Origin: a virus
Virus record (IMG/VR): IMGVR_UViG_3300044712_000538
Location: 1-64,000 of that record
Strand: one strand, 5' to 3'
Length of the DNA stretch: 64,000 nt
Under the pieces are notes generated by a model that ran no database searches, was not told where the DNA came from, and worked only from the letters and a program-made list of their open reading frames with translations. The position numbers and the translations under genes were made by a program. This document shows positions 645-64,000 of the stretch, in pieces. Each line of letters starts with the position of its first letter. Within the stretch, counting starts at the first letter, position 1.

Positions 645-950
645 ATGAAAAATTTCATCATCGCTTTCCTGCTGTTCTTCTCCGCTGGAGCCTTCGCCCG
701 ATGTACTCCGGATCTGGACGCTTTTGCCAAGGTGCAAATTGAATCCCTCCAGATCCAAGACTATGAATGCGAAGATCCTTTCCTGGTTGCGGTCCCGGCT
801 TTTGCCATCCAGAAGCATGTGCATGATCCCGGTCCGCAGGATGCTTGTAAGCCGCCCGCTATTACTACCGTTAAAAAAAGCGGCAAGGCTAAAGTCTACG
901 ATGATGCGAAATGGCCCGGAAAAAACTCGAAGGTCCGATGGTGCATCTAA
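645..950 (+). CDS. small secreted hypothetical protein
   Basis: signal peptide MKNFIIAFLLFFSAGAFA; four Cys. Confidence 0.65.
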   Translation: MKNFIIAFLLFFSAGAFARCTPDLDAFAKVQIESLQIQDYECEDPFLVAVPAFAIQKHVHDPGPQDACKPPAITTVKKSGKAKVYDDAKWPGKNSKVRWCI

Positions 951-42600: not shown

Positions 42601-45600
42601 GAAATACTCGACATAACCGGACCGTTTTATCAGAATGGAGGAAGCATGATTCAAGAGGTAAACGGTGAATCTTCTGCAAAAAAGGTTGGAGAGGTTCTTA
42701 CAAAATTGGGTTTTACCGCCGTAATTGATGAAAAACACCTTCCCAAGTCAGATGGCAATATAAGCAAGCTTGTTTCGGCTCCGGCTGGCCAGCAAGTAAT
42801 CCCATCAAGGGTCCCGGAAGAGTATATTTCAAGTACGCCCATTTCTCTTGAAGACATGGGTATTGGCCCGAATGATACTGCAGGGGAGATTGTTGACAAA
42901 ATGATTTCCTATGGCGGTCCGTTTACCGAGATCTTGAAGTTCATACGGGCTCTTCCTGGATTTAAAGACATAAGCATCCAGCAAGTTGAATCGCTTGACG
43001 CAAACCATCCAGTTAGGAAAGTAATTGGTGCGCTCGCAAGCGATGCATCCGGCGTTTACTTCAATATGAAGGACCGTCCGGACACAATCGTAACAGAAAT
43101 AGCGGGGAAGCCTATACAGGGTATTGTGGCTATTAATCAGGGTAAAACCAATAACGCATACTATACCCTTACGCACGAATTGCTTCACTTTTTGACCATC
43201 GATGGCATCGACTCAAAAGATCCTGAGGTCAAAAAGAAGCTTAAAAAGCTGGAGGACATTTACCTGTTTATGAGGTCTAAGCGGGATCGCTGGCTGATGG
43301 ATGCCATGGAATCCTCTTCTCAGCTTCCTGGCGGGGACAAAATGCCTGGAAAGAATGTTGAACTGGCTGGCGCGCAAAAGGAACTGGATGGAGCCCTGAG
43401 GGAACTGGAATCGGCCAAAAAGGCTTTTGATGCAAAGAGGAAGGAACTGGATAAAGGAATCGTTGCTGACCAGACAGATCTTTTTGGAAACCGGAAGAGC
43501 GATACCGGCAACTCTCTTTTTGATGAAAGGGCATCTCAATCAGGCCGCGATGCTGCCATGAAGCCTTTCCGCGACCGGCTGAACAAAGCTGAATCGGAAG
43601 CCAACCGTCTTCGGAAAAAAGTCGAAGGTCTTTTGGCTTCTGGCGGCGTGAGCCAGGGCGATCTTTTCTCGGCATTCGGATTTGGTCTGCAGGAATCGTA
43701 TGGCTTTACCAATTTTAGGGAATTTATGGTCGAATTGCTTATGAACCCGATGTTCCGGGCAAACATAAGCAACATAGCGGCACGGTCCGAAATGGAATTT
43801 GCGAATGCAATATGGGCTGGCGCAGATCCGGACAAGAGGTCTATTTTGGCAATGATTAAGGACTATATCCGGTCCCTGTTCAAATCCATTTTTGGAAAAT
43901 CATCTGTAAACCTTAACTCCCCGCTGGTTGATCAGGCGGTTACGCTGGCTGAGGATATTTTCTTCTCCGGGGAAAGCATTGTTGACCGGGTGTACGATAC
44001 CGAGGCGGGGAACTACTTTACCATATACAGTAACTACAATTCTGGACGATCCAGCCGTGGACCAGCATCGAAAACACTTTCTTTCTTCCCCGGATCTGGT
44101 GGCCAGGATACCGATTTCATCCTCAAAAACTATATCGCTCGGAAGGTTGTCGAGGGCATATTGTCGGATGCTACCATTTTGAATGTAGTTCAACGGCAGG
44201 GGATGGACCCGGTACAGGCAAAACAGATCATTGATCAGTACCGGAAGAATCCTCCCGGCAAAAAGGCAATGGCGAAGCTTTCTACGTTGGCCAGGGCTGA
44301 AAAAGTTGGCCCGGTAGAAGATGGCGAAAAGGAAAGGAAGCTGAATCGAATGATACCGGTATTTGATCCAAAGGGTATAGAAAGGATCAATGAGCATGCA
44401 ACAAGGTATTTGCCGAAGTCAATGAAGGTAAGCATGGAAGAGGCAGACAAGTTTATTGTCAATATCCCGACCCAAGATCTGAAGGACTTTGCAACCAATG
44501 TTCATAGCGTCCTGAACACCCTTCCGATTGACGTTCAGACTGCAATACGGATCGCGGCAATCCTGCGCATGCAGAGCGAGGTTACTTTGCTCCGGGCTCA
44601 GGGCGATCACGCCCAGGCTGATCGGGTTTCAGAAGATAGTGCCGAGATCTGGAATCACATGACCCCGCTTTCAACCGAATTGGGCCGGGCCGTGAATCTT
44701 TACAAGCGTCTTATCTCCGACCCGGCATTCTCTAAAATGTCCATCCAAAACAAGTTCAGGGCGTTTGTGGCTATGGCCGAAAAGGCTATTGGCCGGAAGC
44801 TTACAGATGGGGAGAAGAAAAAGTTGTTTGAAATGTTCCAAGCATGGGACGCGGCCCCGGACGGAATTGGAAAGCAAATTGCCATGGCCAAGATTATGGC
44901 CTACATCAATACGCTCCGGCCGATTAATTTGTGGGATCTGCTCACAAACATATGGTACTCAAAAATCCTTTCGGGACCGGCGACGCACTTTACTAACCTG
45001 TTCAGCAATATCTTCAACGGTCCGATGGAAATGTTTGTCCAGTCGTTGGCCATTGGGAAGAAATACAAGTCCAATCCTGGGAAAATTGCCTTTGATCTGA
45101 CCAAGGCTTGGTTCTCCGGGATAAGAAAAGGGTATGTTGAATCGAGGCACATTATGATTTATGGCCCGACGAAAGAGGAATCCACCAAGCTATACCAGAA
45201 TCACCTTATGGAGGAACTGGACTGGACGAAGGCGAATATTCCGTCATTCTGGAAAAAAGTCCTGAACTCGCCAGTCCTCCTATCCTTTAATCCTAAGATC
45301 TTGAAGTATGTCGGCCGGATGCTGGCTGCAGAGGACGCTATGCTCCAGAATGCCGGTGAGCATTCTTTTGCTGAGGTTCTGGCGTATCTGGAGGCCGCGA
45401 AGTCAAACAAGGGTGCCGACAAGAAGCTTTTGAAGCAAATGGCTCAGGCCATGGTGGCCAGCGATTCCATTTCATATGCCAAGGCGCAGCAGCAGGCATT
45501 AGACGAGGCCGTTGCCGCGCTGGATATGCTCCGGGATATGAGGTCCGAGGCTGAAATAGCTGGTAACATGGCTGAGGTAAAAGCTATTTCCAGGGAGATT

Positions 45601-46989: not shown

Positions 46990-47660
46990 TGACAGGACAC
47001 ACACAACTATGCAGTATCGATCCATTTGCTCCAGACTTTGAAAAAAAGGAGTCGGTAAATGGATTGTGTTCGATGGCAATGTCCATCTGGTCTGGATGGG
47101 TTATTGATGTATCCGGGGAGGATGATGCCGATCCTGGGCCCAATTCGGAGATAATTACCAAGTATGGACACATGCCGGAAACGGTTTTTGACCTATTGAG
47201 GTGGGTTATACTGGTCTATGATCCGAGGTCCCCGCTGGTAAAGGACTATCCGGATCTTCCGACCAGAAAGTTCAGGGCCCTTGTAGCTATTGGTATTGAC
47301 GAAAAGGAATCTGATTGGGACTGGCTGATCTTGAATCGGGACAAAGGGGTTACAACAATGATTACCGCATACATGCGGAATTATTGCAAAAGCCGATTGT
47401 GGGCAATGATTGTTGCCAATAACGAGGCTTTTTGGGAGTTCTTTTCTACGATGATCGAAAGGAATCAGGAAGGGGCCGATGACATGAATGGCGTAAACGC
47501 CAAGATTAAAACGTCCGACGGGATGGTTTCGCTTCTGGAGAAGATTGATAAGCAGATGAATGACTTTTATGGCGAGGATAAGGAAACCATAGCGGAAGGG
47601 GACGAAATGTTTATGAGCGTAGAAAAAATGGCCGATGTACTATCCAATAGAAAACGGTAG
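46989..47660 (+). CDS. hypothetical protein (possible small terminase subunit)
   Basis: TAATG-coupled and immediately before the large terminase. Confidence 0.6.
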   Translation: MTGHTQLCSIDPFAPDFEKKESVNGLCSMAMSIWSGWVIDVSGEDDADPGPNSEIITKYGHMPETVFDLLRWVILVYDPRSPLVKDYPDLPTRKFRALVAIGIDEKESDWDWLILNRDKGVTTMITAYMRNYCKSRLWAMIVANNEAFWEFFSTMIERNQEGADDMNGVNAKIKTSDGMVSLLEKIDKQMNDFYGEDKETIAEGDEMFMSVEKMADVLSNRKR

Positions 47661-49725
47661 CATATTCGAGGTCCAGGGACTTAAATGCAACGTGCCTCCG
47701 GTAGGGTACGTTTGGGATGTTATCTCTAATAAGCTTGTTCATACCGGTGTTTATAAAAGATCCAGTAAGCCGACTGAGCAATATTGGGAGCGGTTTGAAT
47801 TGCCTCCGTGGTTTAAGGATCGGCGCAAGAAGGAACTTCGGATGCAGGAAACGGACCCGAATTATTACGATCCGGATCTTGCTGAGATTATAAAAAGGGA
47901 ATGGTTCCGCAGGCTGAATGGATTTTGGTTCTGGAACTATAACCCAAACAAAAAGGAAAGCGAGCCGTGCTATATTACCGGGTCGCATTATTTCTATGTT
48001 CAATGGTGGTGCCTTGATACTGGATACCCTGATTTCCGGATAACAGACCTTGAATACTACTACTTTCAGGCATATTGCATTGCAGATCCGTACTGTCTTG
48101 GCATGATTGAGATCGCAAAGCGTAGGCACGGAAAGACGTTCAAGGGCGGTCTATTTATCTATGAGTACGTTTCCAGGATGAAAGAAGCCATCGGCGCACT
48201 TCAATCTAAAACAAACATTGATGGAAGAAAAGTATTCAGAAAAGCAATCGTTCGACCGTTTAGGAAATTACCATATTTCTTCCAGCCACACTATGACACA
48301 ACTACTGGTAAAAGCCCTCAGAAAGAACTTCGTTTCATGGCTGGCAACATTCGTGGTAAGCTGGCCGAAACAATTGATGATATTGATGAATTGAACTCCC
48401 ATATCGACTTTGGGCCGAGCGATGAAGAATACTATGATGGCCAGAAGATCCACCGATACCTTGGGGATGAGGTTGGGAAAACAAAGGTAGTTGACGTTTA
48501 TGAACGCCACCAGATTGTCCGGTATTGTCTTATGTCCCCGGACGGGAAGGTTCTTGGGAAATGCCTATATACTACCACGGTTGAGGATATGGGCAAGGAC
48601 CAGTTCTCCATTAAGAAATTCAGGAAGCTTTGGGACAACTCCAGCCAGTATGAGAAAGAGGAGAAGGGTCAGAAATGGACGAAGACGGGCCTTTATCGTT
48701 ATCTGGTAAAGGCGTACCGCTGCCGGCATGTTGACAAATACGGGTACGCCAATGAGAAGCTTGCGCTGGAAGAAATGATGGAGGAGCGCGCAATACATGC
48801 CGATGATCCTAAGGCGCTGAGTGCGCTTATCCGAAAGGAGCCTAATGATGAGGGAGAAGCTTTCCGGGTAGACGCTTCCAGGTGCCACTACAATCCGAAC
48901 ATCCTTTACAACAGGCGTGACTATCTTACCATCCACGATTCGTCAACATTCTATGTTCGGGGGAATTTTGCATGGAAGGACAATAAGCCGTTTACAGAGG
49001 TGGTTTTCAATAAAAACCCGAAGGGAAGATGGCGCGTTGCTTTATTGTTTGGCGACAGGAAAGAGGCGAATAATGTCCAAAAAAGAGGCAATTTGTTTTT
49101 CCCAGGGAATAAATTGCGATTCATAACGGGGGCTGACCCGTATGATCACGATATTACCGAGGATGATAGCCGGGCAAGTGATGGCGCAGGGGCTACCCTG
49201 CATCGGAATGACAGGAAGAGCCCGTATCATAAAGACTATGGAATGTCATTCGTGTGCATATACTTGGCAAGGCCGTCAAACGCTGACCTATATTACATGG
49301 ACATGATTCTCCAGTGCTGGTATTATGGATCTCCATTGATCTTTGAGAGCCAGAAGCCGGGGATCAAGAAGTTTTTTATTCGGCACCGGATGGAGCCCTT
49401 CTTGGTTATGGTTCCGGGATATTCTGATTACGGCATTCCTTCAACCATTGAGAACAAAAACGAGATAGTTTACGCTACGGAAAACCTTATCGATAATCAT
49501 TCTTCAAAGATATATTTCATCGAATGTATTGATGACTGGTTGGAATTTGACATAAAAAATACGAAGCCATTTGACTTGTCGATGGCAACAGGATGGGCGG
49601 CAGTAGGTGATAGCATTTTGTTGAGTACGGAAAAGAAGTATGATGATCTTGTTGATATACCTATGGTAAATTCCCTGGAAAGCTATTTCGATGAATTTGA
49701 AATACCCTCAATAAACAGAAGATAA
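47635..49725 (+). CDS. terL: terminase large subunit
   Basis: YITGSHYFY, KRRHGKT Walker A, YDGQK, DEVGK Walker B, GADPYDHD nuclease, D..MA.G. Confidence 0.92.
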   Translation: MYYPIENGSIFEVQGLKCNVPPVGYVWDVISNKLVHTGVYKRSSKPTEQYWERFELPPWFKDRRKKELRMQETDPNYYDPDLAEIIKREWFRRLNGFWFWNYNPNKKESEPCYITGSHYFYVQWWCLDTGYPDFRITDLEYYYFQAYCIADPYCLGMIEIAKRRHGKTFKGGLFIYEYVSRMKEAIGALQSKTNIDGRKVFRKAIVRPFRKLPYFFQPHYDTTTGKSPQKELRFMAGNIRGKLAETIDDIDELNSHIDFGPSDEEYYDGQKIHRYLGDEVGKTKVVDVYERHQIVRYCLMSPDGKVLGKCLYTTTVEDMGKDQFSIKKFRKLWDNSSQYEKEEKGQKWTKTGLYRYLVKAYRCRHVDKYGYANEKLALEEMMEERAIHADDPKALSALIRKEPNDEGEAFRVDASRCHYNPNILYNRRDYLTIHDSSTFYVRGNFAWKDNKPFTEVVFNKNPKGRWRVALLFGDRKEANNVQKRGNLFFPGNKLRFITGADPYDHDITEDDSRASDGAGATLHRNDRKSPYHKDYGMSFVCIYLARPSNADLYYMDMILQCWYYGSPLIFESQKPGIKKFFIRHRMEPFLVMVPGYSDYGIPSTIENKNEIVYATENLIDNHSSKIYFIECIDDWLEFDIKNTKPFDLSMATGWAAVGDSILLSTEKKYDDLVDIPMVNSLESYFDEFEIPSINRR

Positions 49726-49726
49726 T

Positions 49727-52126
49727 ATGGAGTACACAGGCAATAGTTCGGCTTACCCGGACCACAATATAGATCCAGAGAAAAAGGGTCATTCGTTCCA
49801 TCTTGATTATGCGAAAGCCATGTGGAACGATTCAATGAACTCGTTCCCGAATACAATATTCTACCACAATGCGGAGAACTATCGCCTGATCGACCAGTAC
49901 ATGACTGGAGATATTCCCATTGACAGGTTCAAAAAACTGCTGAATCAGGACGCGGACGCAAATACCAGCCCGCTGGCAATCGACTGGACACCCCGGAGAT
50001 TGTTTTCCAAGTTCAGGGACATTGGTATTTCAAAGATACTCCAGCGTGGATCGAATATCCGGGCTACCCCAATCGACGCTATCTCAAAGAATGAGATTGA
50101 TGATTACTATGCCGAAATGAAGGCCAAGATCGCCCTCCGGCAGGCCATGGAGAAGCAGGGGGCGGCTGAACTGGTTGATGGACCGGAACTGGCAAAGGGT
50201 GCCACAAATGAGCCGGAAACGCCCGAGGAACTGGAAATGCACATGGAGTACGACTACAAGCCTGGACTGGCGATGGAGTGCGAACTTGCCATCGATGTTA
50301 TTTTCAATGACAATAACATCCACACGGACCAGCGGGAATTTGCCGTTAAGCAGGCATTTGACTATGGTGTTGTTGGGTATTGCGATGGGCATGATAATGA
50401 CGGAAGGGTTACGGCATCTGCGGTTGACGTAAGGAGGATTATCACCAATTATTGCCGCAAGAAGGATTTCTCCGACATGATACATTGGGGGGAGGTCATT
50501 CGCGTTCGGATTGCTGATCTGGCCGACATGAGGAATGAGAAAGGAGAGCAGATCTTTAGCGTAGAAGATATAAAGGAAATCGAGAAAGTTAGTCAGATAC
50601 AAAGCATCAGGGATACCAGCGCGGGAGAAACAAACTCAATTGGACCGAATAAGGGCCATGTGTATGTGTTGCGGTATGAGTTTTTCACATGGAACACCCA
50701 GGTTTTCCGCAGGGATATTAACCCGGAAGGTAATTTCATTTTCAAGGATTCAAAGTACGAGAATAAGGACAAGCCGGAAACATTCATCATGGATGGGGTT
50801 GTTCACAAAAAGTACATTACTCGTACCAATCAGGCTATTTGCGAGGGATTCTGGATCATAGATAGCAATTTCGTCTATAACCATGGATTCCAGAAAAACA
50901 CTAAGCGTAGCCTTAATCCGCGATCCTCTACACGGACTTCCCTTTCCCTGCATCTAATGGCTGCAGATCTGGTAAACATGAAGGCCTATGGCATTGGTGA
51001 AAGGGCTATCCCGCTGATTGACGAATATCACCAGATAATTTTCAAGGCCCAAAACCTAAGAAACCGGATGATCCCGTCCGGGTATGACATTGATCTGGAT
51101 GCCCTGGAGGATGTTTCGCTTGTAAAAGGAGGCACCCCAATGCATCCAAAGGACGTACTGAAGTTCTTTTTCTCTACTGGCATATTGCTTTCGAGGAGAA
51201 GGGATGTGGCAGGCAACCAGAATGCGAATTACAAGGCGGTAAACGTCCTTCAAAATTCTATCGCAAACGATCTGGCGGCTTTATGGAACGACATTGCTAA
51301 TGTGGTAAACCAGATGCGGGACATTACCGGGCTGAATGAGCTTACAGACGGATCTACTCCGAATGCCAAAACGCTGGTCCCGGTTGCGAATATGGCCTAT
51401 GAATCAACAAACAATTCCCTGTATCTGTATGCCAACGCTGAAAAGAGGGCGAGAGAGCGCCTGGCTGCCGGCTGCGTCATGCGCCTGCAATCTTCCCTCA
51501 GGAGGGGTATTGTGTACGACGGGTATGCGTATTCTATGGGCCGTGAATCGCTGAGGTTTATCAAGATCTCCTCCGATGTTGGATTCCGGGAGTTTGCCAT
51601 CAAGCTGGAAGACCAGCCAACGGACGAGGAGCGCCAGTTGCTTGTCGCGGCCTTTACCGAGAAGAAGCAGCAGGGGTTGTTGACGGAAGAGGATGTGATT
51701 ACGATCATGGAAACGAAAAATCTCAAACAGGCTTACCGGCAAATGGCATACAAGATCCGGAAGCGGGAAGAGAAACTGCAGGCCCAAAAAGAAAGGGAGA
51801 TACAACTTAATGCTGAGGCCCAAAAAGAATCGAACATTGTCGCTGAATCGGAAAAAAGGAAAACGCTGAAAGATGAGATTGCAAAGAAAATGGCACTCCA
51901 GAAGCAAATCGACAACGCCAAGAGAAGGCTCCAGTATGAAAAGTTTCAGCAGGACGCATACATTAAGTGGCTGGAAATTTCCGGGAAAGATGGTAAGGAA
52001 ATTCCTGCCCCGCCGATGCCTGACCCGGTTTTACCGGAAGATGGAGAGGTTCCAGAAATAGGAGAGGAGGAAATGGCCGAAGGTGGATCTGAGGCCGAAT
52101 ACTCCGAAGAGGAGCCCATGATGTAA
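49727..52126 (+). CDS. portal protein
   Basis: 799 aa after terL; IDWTP...KF.DI, ITGLNE.TDGSTP...LV. Confidence 0.88.
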   Translation: MEYTGNSSAYPDHNIDPEKKGHSFHLDYAKAMWNDSMNSFPNTIFYHNAENYRLIDQYMTGDIPIDRFKKLLNQDADANTSPLAIDWTPRRLFSKFRDIGISKILQRGSNIRATPIDAISKNEIDDYYAEMKAKIALRQAMEKQGAAELVDGPELAKGATNEPETPEELEMHMEYDYKPGLAMECELAIDVIFNDNNIHTDQREFAVKQAFDYGVVGYCDGHDNDGRVTASAVDVRRIITNYCRKKDFSDMIHWGEVIRVRIADLADMRNEKGEQIFSVEDIKEIEKVSQIQSIRDTSAGETNSIGPNKGHVYVLRYEFFTWNTQVFRRDINPEGNFIFKDSKYENKDKPETFIMDGVVHKKYITRTNQAICEGFWIIDSNFVYNHGFQKNTKRSLNPRSSTRTSLSLHLMAADLVNMKAYGIGERAIPLIDEYHQIIFKAQNLRNRMIPSGYDIDLDALEDVSLVKGGTPMHPKDVLKFFFSTGILLSRRRDVAGNQNANYKAVNVLQNSIANDLAALWNDIANVVNQMRDITGLNELTDGSTPNAKTLVPVANMAYESTNNSLYLYANAEKRARERLAAGCVMRLQSSLRRGIVYDGYAYSMGRESLRFIKISSDVGFREFAIKLEDQPTDEERQLLVAAFTEKKQQGLLTEEDVITIMETKNLKQAYRQMAYKIRKREEKLQAQKEREIQLNAEAQKESNIVAESEKRKTLKDEIAKKMALQKQIDNAKRRLQYEKFQQDAYIKWLEISGKDGKEIPAPPMPDPVLPEDGEVPEIGEEEMAEGGSEAEYSEEEPMM

Positions 52127-56112: not shown

Positions 56113-57786
56113 ATGGAACTGCCTGGCGTTGACTTTACCGTGCATATCGATCAATCCGCAAAGACAATGCGGCTTGCTGACAATGGCGTATATGCGCCGG
56201 GTGTTCAGTCTGGCATAAAAGGTTACTTCTCTGTCATTCAGCCGGATGGCATGGAGATTCCGGGAAGTGCGCTAAATCCGTCTGTTGTATGGACCGGACT
56301 TTCGCTTACCTACTATGTAATAGGCCTCCGGCTGGCCATTGACGGGTGCATCCAGAATGGGGAGTATAAGGTTTCATACACGGTAAATTATCCCGGATAC
56401 GACCCGACTACTGTTACCAAAACATTCGTCATTGACTTTCCGGCAATAACATTGGATGTTGTTCCGGATATGAACGTCTTCATCCCGGATCTGAAAGTAA
56501 GGGACAAGACAAACTATTCCAGGGACGGATATACGCACTCTATTTTGAGGAATTGGGCATATGAAATTCTCAATGTTGCCCCCAAGGTAGAGATCACCAC
56601 TCCGCTCGACTATGTAGATCTTTCCTACAACGGCGAGTATTATGATGCCTACTATAATGTTGATTTTGCAGCCGTTGTAACCTATGTGAGTGTTGCCAAC
56701 TCTTGGCTGACGATAGCGGAATCGTTTTCTACATCACTCCAGACATTTGCCCAAAATCCCGGAAGCTTCGAGAATCTTATCAGCCGGCTTGAATGCCTGA
56801 AATCAAAGTATGATTCATATAAGTCTGGCTGCGTAGAATCGGAGATATACCGCAATAAATATTCTTTCGCATCTTCCCTTTTCCAGCACCTTGTTGATCT
56901 GGTTAAAATAGGTGACGCATTTTCGTCTACCGTTCTGGAGAACTACATGCAGGCCACCGAGGAATGCTCCAGCGGGGCTTATGTTCCATCAAATACGGTC
57001 ATTCCCCCTTTCGACATAAATGAAATTGTCGTTACCCAGGGGGATGTTGACATGCAGAATATTGGCGGTGAGGAAGGGATATACAAAGACTCTGTTGGCA
57101 CAAATCCTAAGGTATTCAGGCTGAAAACATTGAAGACGGCTGGCCTTATGGTTATCACTCCAGTCGGCGATGTTCTTGAATTTGAATACAGAAACAAGGA
57201 CATTTTCATCGAATTTGCTGATACATCAAGATCTTATGAGGCGGGAATGCTTGTGGAAAAGGCAATCGTCATTCCTACTGGAGGAGGACTTATGAATTTC
57301 CGTATAGGTACTACGCCTGGCGGGGAGGAACTTATCATGTCGCAGCCCATCCCTCAGAACGCGGTTAGGTCGTTTACCATTGACAGGTATCAGGAAGTCG
57401 CGCAAACTATATACTTTTCTGGAATTAATGCCGAAACGAAGATCATTGTCATTCTGGACAAGGTTTTGGGCGTATATTCTGATAGCGGATTTGATACAGG
57501 GAACGGGATGGGGTCCGGCGGGAAGCTTACGGTAAATGCGTCTACCGATGTATCTGTTCCGTTTGATACCGGATTTTATGTGAAGCATGCGGTTCTGGTG
57601 CCATCCGTTCCGTTGTCCGCGTTTAAGGTCGGCACGACAAATGGAGGAACGGAAATCATAAATGAAAGTTCAATCCCTGCAGGAGCATCGTTCCCCATAA
57701 AGATTGATACCTACTGCGAGATACCAAAAACCTTTTATTTCGGCGGCATAACCGGTCCGGTAGTTTTAATTGTCTACTATGAATAG
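56113..57786 (+). CDS. putative structural (collar/fibre-docking) protein
   Basis: beta-rich; duplicated C-terminal unit F.IGTT.GG.E.I...YF.GI; no signal peptide. Confidence 0.6.
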   Translation: MELPGVDFTVHIDQSAKTMRLADNGVYAPGVQSGIKGYFSVIQPDGMEIPGSALNPSVVWTGLSLTYYVIGLRLAIDGCIQNGEYKVSYTVNYPGYDPTTVTKTFVIDFPAITLDVVPDMNVFIPDLKVRDKTNYSRDGYTHSILRNWAYEILNVAPKVEITTPLDYVDLSYNGEYYDAYYNVDFAAVVTYVSVANSWLTIAESFSTSLQTFAQNPGSFENLISRLECLKSKYDSYKSGCVESEIYRNKYSFASSLFQHLVDLVKIGDAFSSTVLENYMQATEECSSGAYVPSNTVIPPFDINEIVVTQGDVDMQNIGGEEGIYKDSVGTNPKVFRLKTLKTAGLMVITPVGDVLEFEYRNKDIFIEFADTSRSYEAGMLVEKAIVIPTGGGLMNFRIGTTPGGEELIMSQPIPQNAVRSFTIDRYQEVAQTIYFSGINAETKIIVILDKVLGVYSDSGFDTGNGMGSGGKLTVNASTDVSVPFDTGFYVKHAVLVPSVPLSAFKVGTTNGGTEIINESSIPAGASFPIKIDTYCEIPKTFYFGGITGPVVLIVYYE

Positions 57787-59404
57787 GATTTTGTCTTTCC
57801 TGCTTTGTTTTCTTTTTGCCCAGGCTGCGGCACAGGATATTAACGCGCAAGGCCTTATGGAGCCGAAAAGGCTATTCCCGAGGGAGAACTTTGCGCCTCC
57901 TATTGATACTGTAATCCCCCCTGCTCGGCTTGGAGAATTAAGGTCAAGGCCTACCGAAGGAAGGGTTTATATGTGCGTTTCATATGTTGGTCAAAGGTGG
58001 ATCTCTATTTCCGGAGGAGGAGCCTTGCTGGTTGACAGTTCCATTTATTCGACCATCGCTCAGGCAAGGAAGATCGTCGGAGATTCTGTTGTAGCCGCTC
58101 ATATATTTAACAATGGTGTAACGAGAGATCCATCAAACCCGAGAGTAATTCAGCTTGGCGGCGCTTTGACTAAATCGACTGTTATTGGAGAGGGAGCGGG
58201 TGTATATTCTACTACTTTCCGGGATAGCCTTATCACTAATGATCGGGCTTTTTACATTCAGCTTCCATCCAGTTCGACACCTATGCGGTGGTGGGCTGGT
58301 ATGGGGCCGCTCAGGGATACCACTACTGTTGTATTGGGATGGAATGTCGGCCGATCCCTTTCCAGCCTGAACAGGTCTGGAGTTTTTATTGGGTCAAATG
58401 CTGGATCTGGTGCAACTTCCGGATTGGGTAATGCGGTTGTGGGATTTGAGGCAGGCCGGGACCTGACTACCGGCCAGGTGAATACATTTTTTGGATATAG
58501 GGCTGGACGGGGAATGACAAATGGATTAAACCATGTTGCCATCGGCCCTTCCGCTTTGCTTAGTTATACGTCCGGTACTTCTGCCTCTACAAATATGATG
58601 GCCTTTGGAACCGGATCTTTGCAGTTGGTTACATCCGGCGGCGCAACTACTGCTATCGGATATTCTTCAAATAGCAATGCAACTTCTTCTACTGAGAATA
58701 CTTCTGTTGGGCACCAAGTTCAATGGCAAGCCCTGACAACAACCGGCAACGTAGTGGTCGGTAAAGATGCGATGCGCGAAGGCCAGGTCCAGCTTTACAA
58801 TACAATATTGGGGACGAGGGGGCTTGTTGGATCAGCCAACTCAGTAAATCAGCCTACCGGGAATGTCGGTGCTGGATATGAGGTGATGCAGAACAATGAT
58901 GGTGGTGACTACAATGTAATGCTTGGGTTTCAGGTAGGAAAAAACCTTGGAAGCGTTAGCAATAAGCTGGTCATTGACAATTTCGACAATACGGTAAATC
59001 CTTTCCTTTACGGGGACTTCTCCGCTGATAGCCTTAGGGTGAACGCTTATTTGTCCGTGGAAAAGGTCGATAGCAGCGAGGAGGCTCAAAACACGATTTG
59101 GATTACCCAATCTGGAAGATTTATGAAATCGGCTGCTCGCCCGAGGATTTTGAGCGGCCAGGCAACTCTTGACTTTCCGAGTACGGCATCTGCAAACCAG
59201 TCTGAATTGACCGTTACGGTTACTGGCGCTGCCGTTGGTGATGCCGTTTCTATTGGCGCTCCGGTGGGATCAATTCTTGCAAATGGCGTTTACACTGGAT
59301 ATGTGAGTGCGGCAGATACGGTAACAGTTGTTTTTTTCAATGGAGCAAGCGGGCCTTCGCTGGACCCGGCAAGCGGGGTATTCAATGTTCGCGTCATTAA
59401 ATAA
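57779..59404 (+). CDS. fibre/adhesin-like protein with signal peptide
   Basis: MNRILSFLLCFLFAQAAAQ; roughly 14-aa N..G..AG beta-helix repeats; TVTVTGAAVGD.V C-terminal domain. Confidence 0.75.
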   Translation: MNRILSFLLCFLFAQAAAQDINAQGLMEPKRLFPRENFAPPIDTVIPPARLGELRSRPTEGRVYMCVSYVGQRWISISGGGALLVDSSIYSTIAQARKIVGDSVVAAHIFNNGVTRDPSNPRVIQLGGALTKSTVIGEGAGVYSTTFRDSLITNDRAFYIQLPSSSTPMRWWAGMGPLRDTTTVVLGWNVGRSLSSLNRSGVFIGSNAGSGATSGLGNAVVGFEAGRDLTTGQVNTFFGYRAGRGMTNGLNHVAIGPSALLSYTSGTSASTNMMAFGTGSLQLVTSGGATTAIGYSSNSNATSSTENTSVGHQVQWQALTTTGNVVVGKDAMREGQVQLYNTILGTRGLVGSANSVNQPTGNVGAGYEVMQNNDGGDYNVMLGFQVGKNLGSVSNKLVIDNFDNTVNPFLYGDFSADSLRVNAYLSVEKVDSSEEAQNTIWITQSGRFMKSAARPRILSGQATLDFPSTASANQSELTVTVTGAAVGDAVSIGAPVGSILANGVYTGYVSAADTVTVVFFNGASGPSLDPASGVFNVRVIK

Positions 59405-59410
59405 TGAATC

Positions 59411-59545
59411 ATGAAAAAGACAAATAAAAAGCCCAATCCAATGCTGTTTTTCGCAATAGTTTGGACCATTGTAATATTTGTCGTCCATGTTCTCCCGCAA
59501 AAAGCAGTCAATAGTATTTTTAGCTGGATCTCTGCTATTTTTTGA
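59411..59545 (+). CDS. 44-aa membrane peptide (not in the ORF track)
   Basis: MKKTNKKPNPMLFFAIVWTIVIFVVHVLPQKAVNSIFSWISAIF. Confidence 0.5.
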   Translation: MKKTNKKPNPMLFFAIVWTIVIFVVHVLPQKAVNSIFSWISAIF

Positions 59546-59567
59546 TGGCAAACGAAACTCAATATAA

Positions 59568-62396
59568 ATGAAGCGGTTACTCAACATCATATTTTTCTTT
59601 TCGCTACTTCTTTCGTCCAGCGTGTTTGGGCAAAGTATTATTCAGCCGGACAGGGCGGTAGTGAAGGAGAATTTCAGGCCGCCTCTTGATACGCTTATCG
59701 CTCCCGTATTTTTGGGAGAGCTGCGTACCAGGACTGCGGACAGTTCAATCTACATATCAATTTCTTTGACCGCTCCGAAGAAATGGATAAAAGCATCTGG
59801 ATCTGGAGGGGCAGATGGGAACAATTACCCAACGGCTTTAAGCTTCAATCAGTCAAATGACACCCTTACCCTTTCTTTATTTGGCAGGCCAAGCCTGAGT
59901 ACCGCCATACCAAGGGCGGTATATGACGGGTCAGAAACAAAGATTGGTGCCGGAACAGGCGGGGTTATCGTAACCGGGCTCGGAACTACTCCAAGCCCGT
60001 ATTTGATTTCAGTCCCGTCCTATAATGGATCAGAAACAAAGTTGTCTGCCGGGCCACGGATCTCTATTAGCGGGAGCGGCACTATACCTCAGCCATACCT
60101 TATTACCGCGGCCGATACGGACAGTTCAAGGTATTCGACCATAGCGAGGGTGATGCAAAAGATTGACAGTCTGGCGGCTCTTGCCTCCATACGGTCTATT
60201 GTGAGCGGGGACAGTTCGATACTGGTTACGTCCGGCACCGGCCCTACAGTCGATCTCAGGTCGAGGGATTCCGCGATTGACATTGTGTATATCTCTTCCG
60301 ATGGGTCAGTATTGTTTGAGCATTGGGGATCTGGTGATGGGGTGGATACGATTGATGTTCGGGCATTGGCCGGTGGTCCTGGCGGGGATAATTGGGGATC
60401 GCAGGCCGTTGTTAAGGATGGCACCCTTGTTGGGGATGGAACTACGATCAGCCCTCTTGGAGTTAATCTGGCTGCAATATCCGGGCTGGCCACCTATTAT
60501 ACGGCAGACGGAAAGTTTACCGGGAACAGATCCGTTGACCTTGATGGGTTATATACCCAATACCTTGACACGGTTGCTGGCGTTTCTTCCATATTCAGGA
60601 TCTCGCATGCTGGCATTCTGGTCCAGAAGAGCAATGCTCCTCCAATTGCCAGCGTACAGGACAGTTCTTTCATTTTCCAGTCTGGCGGCACTTATCTTTC
60701 CTCCACCACCAGAAAGCTTAATCTGGTTGCCCCGGATTCCATCTACGCCAGTTCCAGGATAACGCACCAAGGATACCTACCGATCCTTTCCCCCTTCCAG
60801 CTTACCACAAAAGCATATGTCGATAGCCTTCTTTCGACCATAAACGGTTCCGAAACAAAGATCTCGGCCGGGGCAAATGTTACTGTTACCGGTGCCGGAA
60901 CGACGGGAAGCCCATACATCATATCCGCGACGGCCGGTGGCGGCCCGGCTGGCGTTACCAGCGTAAACCTCACAATGCCATCGGCATTTACGGTCCTTGG
61001 CGGCCCCATCACTTCTGCCGGCACGTTTTCTGTAACCGCAAACGGAACGGCATCGGACTACATCGCGGGCAATGGTGCCATCCTCCCTTTCCCGGCCATC
61101 CCGACATATGACGGATCGGAAACGAAAATATCTGCAGGACCGGGCATCGGTGTTACCGGATCTGGAACGACCGGCAGCCCATATGTCATAACCAATCTGT
61201 CTAGCGGGAGCGTGGTGAGCGTAGGGATGAGCGTTCCGGCAGGCCTATCGGTATCTCCCGCAACAATTACCACAAGTGGCACCTTTGCCATCACTACATC
61301 CCTGAATGGATTGGTTATAGGAACAGGATCGGGGTTCTCTACCGCGTCCGTGTCCGCTCCGCTTACCTATTCCGGCGGCAACCTTTCAATTACTCAGTCC
61401 AGTGCATCGACAAATGGTTGGATAACCAGTACCAACTTTCAGAATTGGGAATCCAAGCAGCAACCATTGCAGTTCCGGGATGAAAGCAACCCGGTTGGTG
61501 CCCTGGGTGTTGTCCGGAACGTAAACTTTGTCGGGGCCAGGATCGCGGCAAGCCTAACCGATGCCAATACCGTAACCGTTACGGTGTCTGATCCTACCCC
61601 GGACGGGAATAACTACCCCCTTTCTGTTTCAACGTCTGGAGGCCTTATTACCATCGCGCGGTCTGGATTATCCGATATTGTTGATTCCCTGACCACGACA
61701 AGGGTATTGGAGGGCAGCAGGCTATACTTTACAACTGACCGGGCCCGGCAGTCCGTTTCTGCCAGTACGGGCCTCAGCTACAATGCCTCTACCGGTGTTT
61801 TTACCAACACATCCCCCGACCAGGTTGTTTCGATCTCCGGGACCAGCGGCATATCCGTTACCGGTTCATATCCCAACTTTACAATATCCGGATCTGGAAT
61901 TACAGGCATATTTTCTCAGAAATCATCCATTACTCCCGAGGGATCTTTTAACATCGCCTATGTCAAATCCCTTGGCGGGACATATGAAATTTCAGACAAG
62001 GTATTGAAGCTTGGGAACGTGAATGTCGATCCGCACAGGACAATAACGGTCAACGCAATGCTTTATGCGGATGCCTCATCCGTATTCCCTGGATTGTGGT
62101 ATCATGTGGCAACCCTTCCTTCCGGGTATAGGCCCACCGGGATTGTAAACTTCTCGCTGGCCAATTACGTCCCGACCATAGGCAACCCGGCCACAACTCC
62201 AATTCGGGCCAATGACAATTCCACCGGCATAACCGGGACCGCTGGCGCAGAATATAACTCCGCGAGCGGTTATATAGATCCAGATACTGGCTATATTTAT
62301 GTCAAATTGGGAACGATAGTATCGACCCCTACAAGGTCTGGTGTTTCTACGGTCCTGATACCTATTGTTGTAACTTTTTTCAATAACAATAATTAA
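59568..62396 (+). CDS. tail-fibre-like protein with signal peptide
   Basis: MKRLLNIIFFFSLLLSSSVFGQ; GSETKISAG..GT..SPY.I repeats, VTSV.L..P..F.V.G.PIT..GT units, EGSRLYFT.DRA, ATLPSGYRP tip. Confidence 0.8.
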   Translation: MKRLLNIIFFFSLLLSSSVFGQSIIQPDRAVVKENFRPPLDTLIAPVFLGELRTRTADSSIYISISLTAPKKWIKASGSGGADGNNYPTALSFNQSNDTLTLSLFGRPSLSTAIPRAVYDGSETKIGAGTGGVIVTGLGTTPSPYLISVPSYNGSETKLSAGPRISISGSGTIPQPYLITAADTDSSRYSTIARVMQKIDSLAALASIRSIVSGDSSILVTSGTGPTVDLRSRDSAIDIVYISSDGSVLFEHWGSGDGVDTIDVRALAGGPGGDNWGSQAVVKDGTLVGDGTTISPLGVNLAAISGLATYYTADGKFTGNRSVDLDGLYTQYLDTVAGVSSIFRISHAGILVQKSNAPPIASVQDSSFIFQSGGTYLSSTTRKLNLVAPDSIYASSRITHQGYLPILSPFQLTTKAYVDSLLSTINGSETKISAGANVTVTGAGTTGSPYIISATAGGGPAGVTSVNLTMPSAFTVLGGPITSAGTFSVTANGTASDYIAGNGAILPFPAIPTYDGSETKISAGPGIGVTGSGTTGSPYVITNLSSGSVVSVGMSVPAGLSVSPATITTSGTFAITTSLNGLVIGTGSGFSTASVSAPLTYSGGNLSITQSSASTNGWITSTNFQNWESKQQPLQFRDESNPVGALGVVRNVNFVGARIAASLTDANTVTVTVSDPTPDGNNYPLSVSTSGGLITIARSGLSDIVDSLTTTRVLEGSRLYFTTDRARQSVSASTGLSYNASTGVFTNTSPDQVVSISGTSGISVTGSYPNFTISGSGITGIFSQKSSITPEGSFNIAYVKSLGGTYEISDKVLKLGNVNVDPHRTITVNAMLYADASSVFPGLWYHVATLPSGYRPTGIVNFSLANYVPTIGNPATTPIRANDNSTGITGTAGAEYNSASGYIDPDTGYIYVKLGTIVSTPTRSGVSTVLIPIVVTFFNNNN
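59921..61190 (+). repeat. four (Y)DGSETKISAG...GT..SPY.I coding repeats
   Basis: copies near 59921, 60021, 60841 and 61107. Confidence 0.75.
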
Positions 62397-62408
62397 ACAC
62401 ACACACGA

Positions 62409-62654
62409 ATGAAAAGGAAAATTGCATTGATCGCGCTACTCACGGCCCTATTCTCTTTTTCCCCCAAGCAGGAAGACGTAAAGTCATCCACGCAGGAAAA
62501 AAAGGTAAAGATTGAACTGACGGTAACCGGGTTGAATACCGTTCTTACGGCCCTGCAGGATCGTCCAATGAAAGAGGTTGGCGGCCTTGTCCTTGATATT
62601 ATCCAGCAAGCCGAGCCTCAGCTTAAAGACACCACATCCACCAAAAAGAAATAA
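62409..62654 (+). CDS. small fibre-associated protein with signal peptide
   Basis: MKRKIALIALLTALFSFS plus LTV...N.VL.AL..RP.KEV.GL...I.QQA, a motif seen in small proteins next to fibre genes. Confidence 0.65.
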   Translation: MKRKIALIALLTALFSFSPKQEDVKSSTQEKKVKIELTVTGLNTVLTALQDRPMKEVGGLVLDIIQQAEPQLKDTTSTKKK

Positions 62655-62666
62655 AAGCATTTAGGT

Positions 62667-64000
62667 ATGAAGCGAGCATTGTTCCTTGTTTTTTTACTGG
62701 TTTCAATGGTAGGAATGTCCCAGGTTCAAACTTATTTGACCTGGGACTCTCCTCTTGGAAATTATATCCAGATAAACTCCAATCAGGGTATCCAGCGAAA
62801 TGCCGGAAATACATTCGGATATGATCAGGGGGACGTTGAATCTGTCCAAACCATATCCAGCGGCGAGTCTGTTACTTTTCAGATTGGTGCGCCCGGATCT
62901 CAGTTTTATATTGGCCTTATATCATCGAAGCCGAAGGGCCAAATCGTTGCAGATAATAACGAAGATGGAACCTGGGTGGGATCTGATGCCACGGTAAAAT
63001 TTGGTCAGGTCTTTGGTGTTTTCGGGAATGACAGTACCAGCGCATTTGAAGACGGTATTACAAAGGGAACAAAATATAGGGCCACGATAAATCAATGGTT
63101 CCGGATTAATTATACGGGGTCTTCCATCCAGTACCAGTATTCTACGGACAATGCCGCTACGTTCAACACCTTTTATACATCAACAAATACGGCATCTGGT
63201 TCATACTACGTCTACTTCTCTGCCTTTATTCTGAATGTTTCCCTGCAATCGATTTATAAAACTGGCGCAGGGGGCGGTAATCAGGCTCCTACCGTTTCAG
63301 CTACGGCCTCAAACAGTACCGTAACCTCCCCGGTAACAACCAATACCCTCACGGCATCAGCATCCGATCCGGACGGATCAATTTCATCCTATTCTTGGGT
63401 CAAAATTTCCGGACCGACTGGCGGCAGCATAACATCGCCTACGGCCTCTTCGACCGGAATTACCGGCCTTACGAATGCCGGGACATATGTTTACCGTGTT
63501 ACCGTAACCGACAATGGAGGAGCAACGGCAACTGCTGATGTGGCTTTCTTGGTAACTGGAGCAACTCAGCAGCTTGTAAATGCTGGTCCAGATCAGGCGC
63601 TTCCCATTGGTACAACGTCTACTACCCTATCTGGGACCGCAGTAACCGCCAGCCAAACCGACCTAATTATATTTTTTGGAGAATCAAATGCATCCGGCCA
63701 GGCACCGAATACTTCTGCGACCAGCATCGAGCGGCTGCCAAGGAGTTCCGTTAAGATCTACAACAATTTCAATGGGCTGATCGAAAACCTTGATCTGGAC
63801 CAGAACAATAATCTTGATGTATGCGGAATCCCGAGTACCCATGGTTGGGAAATTGGTCTGGCCGATGCGGTCGAGGCTGGACGGCTGAACAACCCTACAT
63901 ATCTTCTGAAAGTCGCATGCGCAGGCACCAGAATCGACCAATGGCTGAATGGCTCCGGAAACCCGTCTTGGAATGAGTTTGTACGGAAGGTGGATGACAT
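62667..64000 (+). CDS. secreted PKD-domain + SGNH/SASA acetylesterase protein (truncated by the window end; not in the ORF track)
   Basis: MKRALFLVFLLVSMVGMSQ; NQAPTV...ASDPDGSISSYSW.KISGP...GTYVYRVTVTDN.GA (PKD); IIFFGESNASG, GWEIGLA, LLKVA..GT.I..W (SASA). Confidence 0.8.
   Translation, partial: MKRALFLVFLLVSMVGMSQVQTYLTWDSPLGNYIQINSNQGIQRNAGNTFGYDQGDVESVQTISSGESVTFQIGAPGSQFYIGLISSKPKGQIVADNNEDGTWVGSDATVKFGQVFGVFGNDSTSAFEDGITKGTKYRATINQWFRINYTGSSIQYQYSTDNAATFNTFYTSTNTASGSYYVYFSAFILNVSLQSIYKTGAGGGNQAPTVSATASNSTVTSPVTTNTLTASASDPDGSISSYSWVKISGPTGGSITSPTASSTGITGLTNAGTYVYRVTVTDNGGATATADVAFLVTGATQQLVNAGPDQALPIGTTSTTLSGTAVTASQTDLIIFFGESNASGQAPNTSATSIERLPRSSVKIYNNFNGLIENLDLDQNNNLDVCGIPSTHGWEIGLADAVEAGRLNNPTYLLKVACAGTRIDQWLNGSGNPSWNEFVRKVDD

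What the first reader, a model, noticed from the sequence alone, without database searches (positions are those of the whole stretch)
57779..64000. Tail-fibre module in which every protein carries a Sec signal peptide
Seen: four genes in the receptor-binding position (57779, 59568, 62409, 62667) begin with classical signal peptides, and three end in a Gln cleavage site (AAAQ, VFGQ, GMSQ). A 44-aa membrane peptide lies among them. Their bodies look like phage fibre or spike parts: shaft repeats, an LPSGYRP tip, a fibre-chaperone-like motif and an acetylesterase. Known: tailed-phage virion proteins normally assemble in the cytoplasm without signal peptides, and Gln at +1 is the Bacteroidota Q-rule for SPI substrates. 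Inference: the fibres and their chaperone are exported and assembled in the periplasm, then docked on virions at lysis. Alternatively they form a phage-encoded surface appendage or receptor-masking system.
Basis: partly seen in the sequence, partly recalled or inferred. Interest (0 to 1): 0.88.

Follow-up and report, generated by a model that had tools for sequence, protein, structure and literature searches.

The report
Phage fibre proteins carrying export signals
An uncultured 76-kb short-tailed phage of soil Bacteroidota puts its host's secretion signal on a block of tail-fibre-like and sugar-degrading proteins, so these parts very probably mature in the periplasm and not in the cytoplasm, where tailed-phage particles are built.

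Summary
gpA (57779), gpB (59568) and gpD (62667) begin with classical signal-peptidase-I signals followed by Gln at +1. gpC (62409) has a signal- or anchor-like start, and a 44-aa membrane peptide lies between gpA and gpB.

The signals are real and conserved:
- All 58 database clusters that share the gpA/gpB N-terminal domain carry one.
- 65 of 67 family members have a small-x-small|Q site.
- Between gpD and its orthologue in a related phage, the signal is 6/19 identical and the next 100 residues are 96/100 identical.

The protein bodies are built from phage receptor-binding parts. No T9SS sorting domain was found.

The shared N-domain holds an invariant D-T-hydrophobic triplet that matches the Bacteroidota O-glycosylation sequon. 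That sequon is about threefold more frequent in this family than in leaderless fibre relatives.

The cultured, distantly related Cellulophaga phage phi18:3 has three consecutive signal-bearing genes, and its record annotates them as virion proteins from MS/MS.

- **Best reading (0.5):** exported, matured in the periplasm, and attached to particles at lysis.
- **Main rival (0.3):** exported proteins that act on the envelope and are never part of the virion.

"Every protein" and "chaperone-like" are overstated. This scan has reported the same phenomenon on other phage DNA several times. My literature searches found no paper that describes it.

The parts
56113..57786 (+). p557: leaderless fibre-like protein directly upstream. 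It has two copies of a conserved ~85-aa C-terminal domain, and its stop overlaps the gpA start.
   Evidence: ORF. The C-terminal domain also occurs in the genes upstream of the signal-bearing fibre in L019 (collagen-like, 397 aa) and L021 (pectate-lyase-like, 922 aa). The same 8-nt overlap (YYE-stop / M-N-K/R) is seen in all three phages.
57779..59404 (+). gpA, 541 aa: signal peptide, shared N-domain, YadA-head/PTL-type trimeric shaft, and a C-terminal lectin-like domain.
   Evidence: (PHROG virion structural protein and tail spike)
57779..57847 (+). gpA signal peptide (23 aa if cleaved at INA|Q24; alternative AAA|Q19).
   Evidence: Sequence. Q24 is invariant in the family alignment.
57848..58018 (+). 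gpA N-domain (~57 aa) with the invariant D43-T44-V45 sequon at 57905-57913.
59144..59401 (+). gpA C-terminal beta-sandwich, of the distal-domain type found in tailspikes.
   Evidence: AF2 pLDDT 90.5. Best match is the KP32gp38 C-terminal domain, Z 8.2, rmsd 2.7, 82 residues. The domain recurs at the extreme C-terminus of 13 other N-domain proteins.
59411..59545 (+). 44-aa single-pass membrane peptide. No counterpart at this position in L019 or L021.
59568..62396 (+). gpB, 942 aa: signal peptide (59568-59630), N-domain (59631-59801, sequon D41-T42-L43 at 59688-59696), four YDGSETK shaft repeats and a distal tip.
62409..62654 (+). gpC, 81 aa: basic n-region and hydrophobic core but no Q-rule cleavage site. 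Either a signal or an N-terminal anchor. ORFan.
62667..64000 (+). gpD (first 444 of 1333 aa; it runs to genome position 66668): signal peptide 62667-62720, N-terminal domain, PKD, SASA acetylesterase, a DUF4832 glycosidase-like region, further PKD domains and a short basic tail.

Best explanation
gpA, gpB and gpD are late-expressed proteins of the receptor-binding and depolymerase type, and they are true Sec / signal-peptidase-I substrates of a Bacteroidota host.

Supported directly by sequence and comparison:
- Each starts with a cleavable signal followed by Gln (the Q-rule).
- The signal is conserved in character but not in sequence across the whole family.
- None carries a T9SS sorting domain.

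Inferred: the proteins cross the inner membrane, are cleaved before Gln (which the host glutaminyl cyclase can convert to pyroglutamate), trimerise in the periplasm, and can be O-glycosylated at the invariant D-T-x site of the shared N-domain and at further sequons.

Inferred, and the least secure step: they stay in the periplasm until holin/endolysin/spanin lysis mixes the compartments. They then attach to finished particles through the conserved N-terminal domain and serve as exchangeable fibres or spikes.

The 44-aa peptide and the 81-aa gpC are non-conserved membrane accessories of unknown role.

I put export at about 0.9 and the whole chain, including incorporation into virions, at about 0.5.
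For: Export:
- All 58 N-domain clusters and 9 gpD relatives that begin with the same N-terminal domain carry a signal; 65 of 67 have a small-x-small|Q site.
- Signals diverge (about 30% identity) while the mature N-termini are 70-96% identical.
- Gene packing and the conserved 8-nt overlap fix the start codon.

Receptor-binding nature:
- gpB shaft repeats are shared with leaderless phage fibres that end in Peptidase_S74.
- gpA matches PHROG virion and tail-spike families and PTL/YadA-head trimers.
- The gpA C-terminal domain matches tailspike distal domains, Z 8.2.
- Family members carry K1-lyase_C, pectate lyase, GDSL, phage tail repeat, SO2946_C and LamG modules.
- One conserved N-domain is joined to many different distal modules, and two paralogues sit in one genome. 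That is the usual pattern of exchangeable fibres sharing one attachment point.

Virion association by analogy:
- Cellulophaga phage phi18:3 is distantly related (TerL 28%, portal 24%).
- It has three consecutive Q-rule signal-bearing genes, gp085-087, just upstream of its lysis genes.
- All three are annotated as virion/structural/tail proteins 'based on experimental MS/MS proteomics'.
- The gp086 and gp087 N-terminal regions (gp087 the first ~60 residues, gp086 ~115) match the starts of tail-fibre and pectate-lyase PHROGs.

Glycosylation:
- The residue after the invariant D-T is V/L/I/T/A/M in 51 of 55 members. The motif is given in PMC8550257 and PMC12871550.
- Sequon observed/expected is 1.87 beyond residue 100 in the family, against 0.64 in 84 leaderless fibre homologues. 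Control motifs do not rise above about 1.1.
- gpA has 6 sequons against 1.6 expected (p 0.0075) and gpB 9 against 4.6 (p 0.04).
Against: - No tailed phage is known to me to assemble virion parts from the periplasm, and the topological barrier is real.
- This genome has leaderless fibre-like candidates (557, 664 and 801 aa) that could be the true receptor-binding proteins.
- The phi18:3 proteins share no detectable sequence similarity with gpA, gpB or gpD. MS of purified particles can also pick up co-purifying envelope proteins.
- The closest cellular homologues of gpD are free T9SS-secreted enzymes, so its signal may simply be inherited from a captured host gene.
- Sequon enrichment is uneven. 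There is none in gpD (5 vs 5.6), in the L021 fibre (1 vs 3.4) or in the L019 506-aa protein (0 vs 2.6).
- The N-domain fold has no significant match. The best is CBA120 TSP4 residues 20-76 at Z 3.9, which is within noise.
Confidence: 0.5

Rival explanations
1. The proteins are exported but never become part of the virion. The block is a late 'exit' or receptor-handling module. Periplasmic esterase/glycosidase (gpD) and lectin-like trimers (gpA, gpB) degrade, deacetylate or bind the host's surface polysaccharide as it passes the periplasm. At lysis they are released as free enzymes. The infected cell and its debris then stop adsorbing phage, and progeny escape the capsule or slime.
For: - The signals are real.
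- gpD is a multidomain carbohydrate esterase/glycosidase. Its bacterial homologues (Chitinophagaceae, Puia and others, on megabase contigs) are secreted T9SS enzymes.
- gpD and two further signal-bearing proteins in L019 lack the shared N-domain, so they have no obvious common docking handle.
- Leaderless fibre candidates exist for the virion.
- In L021 and phi18:3 the signal-bearing genes sit directly next to the lysis genes.
Against: - A conserved N-domain joined to many exchangeable distal modules, with two paralogues in one genome, is what virion-attached fibres look like.
- phi18:3 gp085-087 were found in virion preparations.
- A specific enrichment of glycosylation sequons suggests a long-lived extracellular role more than a brief periplasmic one.
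Confidence: 0.3
2. The proteins are displayed on the surface of the infected cell, or on outer-membrane vesicles. They would form a phage-encoded appendage, decoy or receptor mask, carried across the outer membrane by a host system.
For: - Bacteria do export phage-like trimeric fibres with the same layout. In all 21 Bdellovibrio MAT fibres a conserved beta-rich domain directly follows the signal peptide, and the tips vary (PMC10769870).
- Bacteroidota genomes hold many signal-bearing PTL-trimer / Peptidase_S74 proteins.
- gpD orthologues share a conserved basic C-terminal tail that might be a sorting tag.
Against: - No T9SS C-terminal domain scored at E <= 0.1 in NCBIfam or at E <= 0.01 in Pfam for gpA, gpB, gpC or gpD.
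- The phage versions of gpD have lost the PF18962 domain that their bacterial homologues carry.
- The gpA C-terminal domain resembles tailspike distal domains.
- There is no lipobox.
Confidence: 0.08
3. The proteins are not exported. The hydrophobic N-termini are mis-called starts, uncleaved anchors (SAR-like), or virion segments that interact with membranes during infection.
For: gpC lacks a clear cleavage site. One database gene call for gpD starts at Met14.
Against: - No in-frame start lies closer than 26 codons downstream in gpA, and there is no nearby Met in gpB.
- Intergenic gaps are 6-22 nt, and the start overlap is conserved in three phages.
- The hydrophobic cores are strongly hydrophobic and not Gly/Ala-rich like SAR domains. 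They are followed by canonical small-x-small|Q sites in 65 of 67 relatives.
- Conservation begins exactly at the Gln.
Confidence: 0.04

Closest known systems
Cellulophaga phage phi18:3 (Pachyviridae, NC_021794) gp085, gp086, gp087
   Same: - It is a podophage of Bacteroidota, distantly related to this one (TerL 28%, portal 24%).
- It has three consecutive late genes just upstream of the lysis genes.
- Each begins with a basic n-region, a hydrophobic core and a small-x-small|Q site.
- The N-terminal parts of gp086 and gp087 (gp087 the first ~60 residues, gp086 ~115) recur on 'tail fiber' and 'pectate lyase' PHROG families.
- All three are annotated as virion proteins from MS/MS.
   Different: - No detectable sequence similarity to gpA, gpB or gpD, and a different N-terminal module without the PPxDT motif.
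- No sequon enrichment there (1 observed against about 3 expected in each).
- As far as I could find, the record and the literature do not comment on the leaders.
Bdellovibrio bacteriovorus mosaic adhesive trimer (MAT) fibres (PMC10769870)
   Same: The layout is the same: a signal peptide, then a conserved beta-rich N-terminal domain, then a long trimeric phage-like fibre with variable adhesive tips. It shows that such fibres can fold outside the cytoplasm.
   Different: These are chromosomal genes of a predatory bacterium, deployed on its own surface or vesicle. They are not encoded in a phage structural operon. Homology to the N-domain here was not tested.
Classical leaderless phage tail fibres and tailspikes (Peptidase_S74-ended fibres; KP32gp38, LKA1 gp49, phi297 gp61)
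   Same: Shaft repeats are shared at 55-60% identity over single repeat units. The gpA C-terminal beta-sandwich matches their distal domains (Z 8.2, 6.3 and 6.0). The enzyme modules are those of depolymerases.
   Different: Those proteins have no signal peptide and assemble in the cytoplasm. The proteins here always have one.
Q-rule signal-bearing proteins of Porphyromonas gingivalis prophages (PMC10367356)
   Same: These are phage-encoded proteins predicted to be signal-peptidase-I substrates that expose Gln at +1.
   Different: They are five genes of unknown function in temperate siphophage-like elements. They were not described as fibre-like or as part of the virion module.
Bacteroidota T9SS-secreted PKD/DUF4832 enzymes (Chitinophagaceae)
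   Same: About 40% identity to gpD over about half its length, with the same signal peptide, PKD and DUF4832 domains.
   Different: They end in the PF18962 T9SS sorting domain. gpD and its phage orthologues end instead in a short basic tail after the last PKD domain.

Membership tests
Sec / signal peptidase I substrates obeying the Bacteroidota Q-rule | Basic n-region, a 7-15-residue hydrophobic core, and small residues at -1 and -3 | tested here: met
   gpA, gpB and gpD by inspection. 65 of 67 relatives meet it, with median length 19 and charge +1 to +2. gpC meets the first two features only.
Sec / signal peptidase I substrates obeying the Bacteroidota Q-rule | Gln at +1 (PMC10653852) | tested here: met
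   Q24 (or Q19) in gpA, Q22 in gpB and Q19 in gpD. The Gln is invariant in the family alignments. gpC does not meet it.
Sec / signal peptidase I substrates obeying the Bacteroidota Q-rule | Actual cleavage and a pyroglutamate N-terminus | not testable with these tools
   Needs N-terminal MS.
T9SS cargo | C-terminal sorting domain (PF18962 / TIGR04183 type A, or TIGR04131 type B) | tested here: not met
   No hit at E <= 0.1 in NCBIfam or E <= 0.01 in Pfam for gpA, gpB, gpC or full-length gpD. Bacterial gpD homologues do carry PF18962, and the phage orthologues do not. By structure the result is inconclusive only: the top matches of the gpA C-terminal domain are tailspike domains.
Phage tail fibre / tailspike receptor-binding proteins | Trimeric fibre or beta-helix body with a distal binding or enzymatic domain homologous to known phage proteins | tested here: met
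Phage tail fibre / tailspike receptor-binding proteins | N-terminal domain that attaches to the tail | tested here: inconclusive
   The conserved N-domain was modelled at pLDDT 76. The best structural match is CBA120 TSP4 residues 20-76 at Z 3.9, with no significant Foldseek hit.
Phage tail fibre / tailspike receptor-binding proteins | Presence in purified virions | not testable with these tools
   There is only an analogy: phi18:3 gp085-087 are annotated from MS/MS.
Substrates of the Bacteroidota general O-glycosylation system | Extracytoplasmic location | tested here: met
   Predicted from the conserved signal peptides.
Substrates of the Bacteroidota general O-glycosylation system | D-(S/T)-(A/I/L/V/M/T) sequon (PMC8550257) | tested here: met
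   An invariant D-T plus an allowed third residue in 51 of 55 N-domains. The family is enriched at O/E 1.87-2.26, against 0.64 in leaderless homologues.
Substrates of the Bacteroidota general O-glycosylation system | Glycan attached | not testable with these tools
   Needs glycoproteomics.
SAR (signal-arrest-release) domains | Weakly hydrophobic, Gly/Ala/Ser-rich, uncleaved N-terminal transmembrane segment | tested here: not met
   The cores are rich in Leu/Ile/Phe (mean Kyte-Doolittle 2.7-3.1 over 10 residues) and are followed by canonical cleavage sites.
Bdellovibrio MAT fibres | Signal peptide, conserved N-terminal beta-rich domain, trimeric fibre and variable tip | tested here: met
   The architecture matches. 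This is a likeness of layout only.
Bdellovibrio MAT fibres | Homology of the N-terminal domain; chromosomal, predator-encoded | not tested
   No MAT sequence was compared. The genes here lie in a phage structural operon.

The most novel reading that the evidence does not exclude
In this clade of Bacteroidota podophages, the exchangeable receptor-binding fibres and spikes are made as secretory proteins. They are trimmed to pyroglutamate, O-glycosylated by the host at an invariant site in their attachment domain, and folded in the periplasm. They are attached to otherwise complete particles only when lysis mixes periplasm and cytoplasm. The host-type glycan on the attachment domain might itself be part of the docking handle, for instance read by the conserved C-terminal domains of the upstream p557-type protein.
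Probability: 0.35. Interest if true: 0.9.

Novelty: new variant of a known kind. Interest (0 to 1): 0.75.

Why it matters
Tailed-phage particles are taken to assemble entirely in the cytoplasm. A conserved export signal on receptor-binding-type proteins points to one of two things. The first is a new assembly route: periplasmic maturation, host glycosylation, and attachment at lysis. The second is a new class of exported phage proteins, derived from fibres, that work on the host envelope.

Either would change how tail fibres of Bacteroidota phages are annotated, expressed and engineered. Cytoplasmic expression in E. coli would give an unprocessed, unglycosylated product. It would also change how host range is predicted for soil, marine and gut Bacteroidota phages.

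The question can be tested now in a cultured system, Cellulophaga phage phi18:3.

Tried and rejected
- **Complex prediction.** Complex prediction of the p557 C-terminal tandem domain with the N-domain gave no verdict (score 0.00). It is not evidence either way.
- **Fold of the N-domain.** Foldseek found nothing significant. The wide structural search gave only Z <= 3.9.
- **T9SS.** No sorting-domain hit by Pfam or NCBIfam. None appeared in the top 50 structural matches of the gpA C-terminal domain.
- **Relatives.**
  - No nucleotide match in the phage collection.
  - The N-domain gave no tblastn match in 50,697 phage records.
  - Pattern scans of IMG/VR and of GTDB genomes found no confirmed relative.
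  - A repeat-based IMG/VR scan found only distant fibres.
  - The broad family alignment was too diverse to scan with.
  - Relatives cannot be drawn for a virus record.
- **gpC.** No family and no homologue, so the chaperone idea was dropped.
- **p557.** The Atlas search was uninformative.
- **Sequencing runs.** Only two DNA holders, both rhizosphere metagenomes and both possible sources of this DNA. No RNA holder is listed.
- **Literature.** Three full-text searches found no paper describing signal peptides on tail fibres of Bacteroidota phages. The Hankyphage DGR paper notes that phage DGR targets lack signal peptides.
- **Maribacter phage Panino.** The 42 kb examined holds no such block.
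Full report
**Setting.** The window is bases 1-64000 of a single 75,939-bp contig that occurs in rhizosphere metagenomes. It is a phage.
- The large terminase (47635-49725) and portal (49727-52126) match PHROG families at E 1e-62 and 1e-58.
- The capsid protein weakly matches the SU10 type.
- The nearest cultured phages are podophages of Maribacter, Flavobacterium and Cellulophaga, at about 25% portal identity.
- After the head genes come a 296-aa and a 557-aa gene, then the block in question, and then genes of 105, 72, 156, 664 and 801 aa.
- The genome ends with a lysis cassette: holin-like proteins, a lipoprotein with a C-terminal membrane anchor, and a CHAP endolysin.

**The observation.** All five ORFs are present and tightly packed, with gaps of 6-22 nt.
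- gpA (57779-59404), gpB (59568-62396) and gpD (62667 to genome position 66668) each begin with a basic n-region, a strongly hydrophobic core and a small-x-small|Gln site.
- gpC (62409-62654) has the first two features but no such site.
- The 44-aa ORF (59411-59545) is a single-pass membrane peptide.
- A simple scan of the whole genome flags about eleven real genes with such N-termini, and five of them are consecutive here.
- The gpA ATG lies inside the last codons of the upstream gene (ctATGAATAG).
- The same 8-nt overlap (Y-Y-E-stop read as M-N-K/R) is found in two related metagenomic phages, L019 and L021. This fixes the start codon.

**Are the signals real?** SignalP was not available, so I used conservation.
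- A profile of the first 105 residues of gpA and gpB found 58 further clusters among 1.84 billion representatives.
- Every one of them begins with a signal of this kind, followed by Gln and the same ~55-residue domain. The few exceptions are truncated gene calls.
- Nine gpD relatives that begin with the same N-terminal domain behave the same way. Their conserved domain starts at or right after the Gln.
- In all, 65 of 67 proteins have a [A/S/G/T]-x-[small]|Q site, with median signal length 19 and net n-region charge +1 or +2.
- Between orthologues the signal is 26-33% identical, and nearly all of that is the M-K/N-R start. The next 60-100 residues are 70-96% identical.
- This pattern fits selection for hydrophobic character only, as expected of a cleaved leader.

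The Q-rule itself is documented (PMC10653852). Q-rule proteins of unknown function have been noted in Porphyromonas prophages (PMC10367356).

**What the proteins are.**
- gpB shares its YDGSETK shaft units with ordinary leaderless phage fibres that end in Peptidase_S74. It has close full-length relatives on contigs of 74 and 77 kb.
- gpA matches PHROG 'virion structural protein' and 'tail spike' families and PTL-trimer/YadA-head-like clusters.
- The last ~85 residues of gpA fold with pLDDT 90.5. The fold is a beta-sandwich like the distal domain of tailspikes:
  - KP32gp38, Z 8.2, rmsd 2.7 over 82 residues;
  - phi297 gp61, Z 6.3;
  - LKA1 gp49, Z 6.0;
  - R-pyocin fibre tips, Z 5.4-6.0.
- The same domain ends 13 other N-domain proteins.
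- Other family members carry K1-lyase_C, pectate-lyase, GDSL-lipase, phage-tail-repeat, SO2946_C and LamG modules.
- gpD is a 1333-aa enzyme with four PKD domains, a SASA acetylesterase and a DUF4832 glycosidase-like region.
- The cellular homologues of gpD lie on megabase contigs of Chitinophagaceae and relatives and end in the T9SS sorting domain PF18962. The phage orthologues have replaced that domain with a short basic tail.
- No T9SS domain is detectable in any of the four proteins.
- gpC is an ORFan, so the chaperone reading is unsupported.

**Related phages.** L019 has four consecutive signal-bearing genes: a gpA orthologue, a LamG-like protein, an RCC1/PKD/beta-helix protein and a gpD orthologue. 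They follow a leaderless collagen-like fibre that shares the p557 C-terminal domain. The LamG-like part of one of them is homologous to the N-terminus of this phage's leaderless 801-aa protein. L021 has one signal-bearing N-domain fibre, placed between a p557-type spike and holin-like genes. The family was not found in the 50,697 deposited phage genomes, nor by pattern in IMG/VR or GTDB genomes. Its members sit on contigs of 48-97 kb. It therefore appears to be a trait of an uncultured phage clade.

**Glycosylation sequon.** The only invariant residues of the N-domain are D-T and a Trp. Pro, Gly, Glu and Arg are nearly invariant around them.
- The residue after D-T is V, L, I, T, A or M in 51 of 55 members. 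This matches the Bacteroidota O-glycosylation motif D-(S/T)-(A/I/L/V/M/T) (PMC8550257; review PMC12871550).
- In this genome the sequon is over-represented in gpA (6 vs 1.6 expected, shuffle p 0.0075) and gpB (9 vs 4.6, p 0.04). It is not over-represented in gpD, and it is under-represented in the leaderless proteins taken together.
- Across the family, observed/expected is 2.26, or 1.87 when the first 100 residues are left out. It is 0.64 in 84 leaderless fibre homologues and 0.54 in bacterial gpD homologues. Three control motifs stay at or below 1.12.
- The enrichment is uneven between proteins, so I treat it as suggestive.

**Virion or not?** This is the open step.

In favour of virion incorporation:
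- One conserved N-terminal domain is joined to many distal modules, and one genome holds two paralogues.
- The genes sit inside the structural operon.
- There is a lead from earlier notes of this scan, which I checked. Cellulophaga phage phi18:3 is distantly related (TerL 28%, E 2e-46; portal 24%).
  - It has three consecutive genes, gp085-087, just upstream of its lysis genes.
  - All three carry Q-rule signals.
  - All three are annotated as virion/structural/tail proteins 'based on experimental MS/MS proteomics analysis'.
  - The gp086 and gp087 N-terminal regions (gp087 the first ~60 residues, gp086 ~115) recur on 'tail fiber' and 'pectate lyase' PHROG families.

Against it:
- I know of no precedent among tailed phages.
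- Leaderless fibre candidates exist in this genome.
- gpD descends from secreted host enzymes.
- The phi18:3 proteins are not detectably homologous to those here.

The N-domain model (pLDDT 76) has no significant structural match. The best is the N-terminal part of CBA120 TSP4 at Z 3.9, and several tailspike particle-binding domains score Z 2-2.4. These values are within noise.

**Verdict.** Export is very likely (about 0.9). I favour periplasmic maturation followed by attachment to particles at lysis (0.5). The alternatives are an exported, non-virion envelope-acting module (0.3), surface display (0.08) and no export (0.04).

Bdellovibrio MAT fibres show that phage-like trimeric fibres with a signal peptide and a conserved N-terminal domain can fold outside the cytoplasm (PMC10769870).

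This scan has reported the same phenomenon on other phage DNA several times. My three literature searches found no paper that describes it.

Noticed in passing
window 11734-12579 (- strand): A 281-aa protein in the early/middle region also has a Q-rule-type signal (…LTA|QGLMT…) followed by a DUF4082 domain (E 1e-25). So the phage exports at least one more protein outside the fibre block.
   Followed up: partly
window 645-950 (+): A 101-aa ORF with a signal-like N-terminus (MKNF…SAGAFA|R…). It matches no family.
   Followed up: no
L001 16785-17435 (genome 72784-73434, beyond the window): A 216-aa protein with a lipoprotein-type signal (…LASSC) and a C-terminal transmembrane helix. It sits between holin-like genes and a CHAP endolysin, and the layout is that of a unimolecular spanin like that of phage T1.
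   Followed up: no
L001 13691-16096 (genome 69690-72095): A leaderless 801-aa protein with a LamG-like N-terminal region homologous to part of a signal-bearing protein in L019. It continues with more than a dozen tandem PGIG-x-V-x-V-T-G-I-A-P units.
   Followed up: partly
L001 10600-10669 (C-terminus of gpD) and orthologues P0151, P0156, P0158, P0161: gpD orthologues end in a conserved basic tail after the last PKD domain (…SNSRNRRVRS-I/V-NVQ and variants), at the place where bacterial homologues carry the T9SS sorting domain. Its function is unknown.
   Followed up: no
window 57779-57786; L019 2588-2595; L021 2764-2771: The same 8-nt overlap is conserved in three phages that are otherwise diverged. 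The upstream gene ends Y-Y-E-stop and the signal-bearing fibre starts M-N-K/R inside it. This points to translational coupling or a recombination joint between the two conserved domains.
   Followed up: partly
window 33655-46989: A single 4444-aa ORF precedes the terminase. phi18:3 has a 1935-aa MS-verified virion protein in a comparable block.
   Followed up: no
P0016, P0018, P0068 (bacterial proteins found with gpB): Bacteroidota chromosomal proteins that share the fibre repeats also start with Q-rule signals. In the database's precomputed annotation they carry PF26696 (PTL_trimer) and, for two of them, PF07603 (Lcl_C). My own Pfam scan confirmed only Lcl_C in P0016 and found no family in P0068. 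Exported phage-like trimers may therefore also occur in the hosts themselves.
   Followed up: partly
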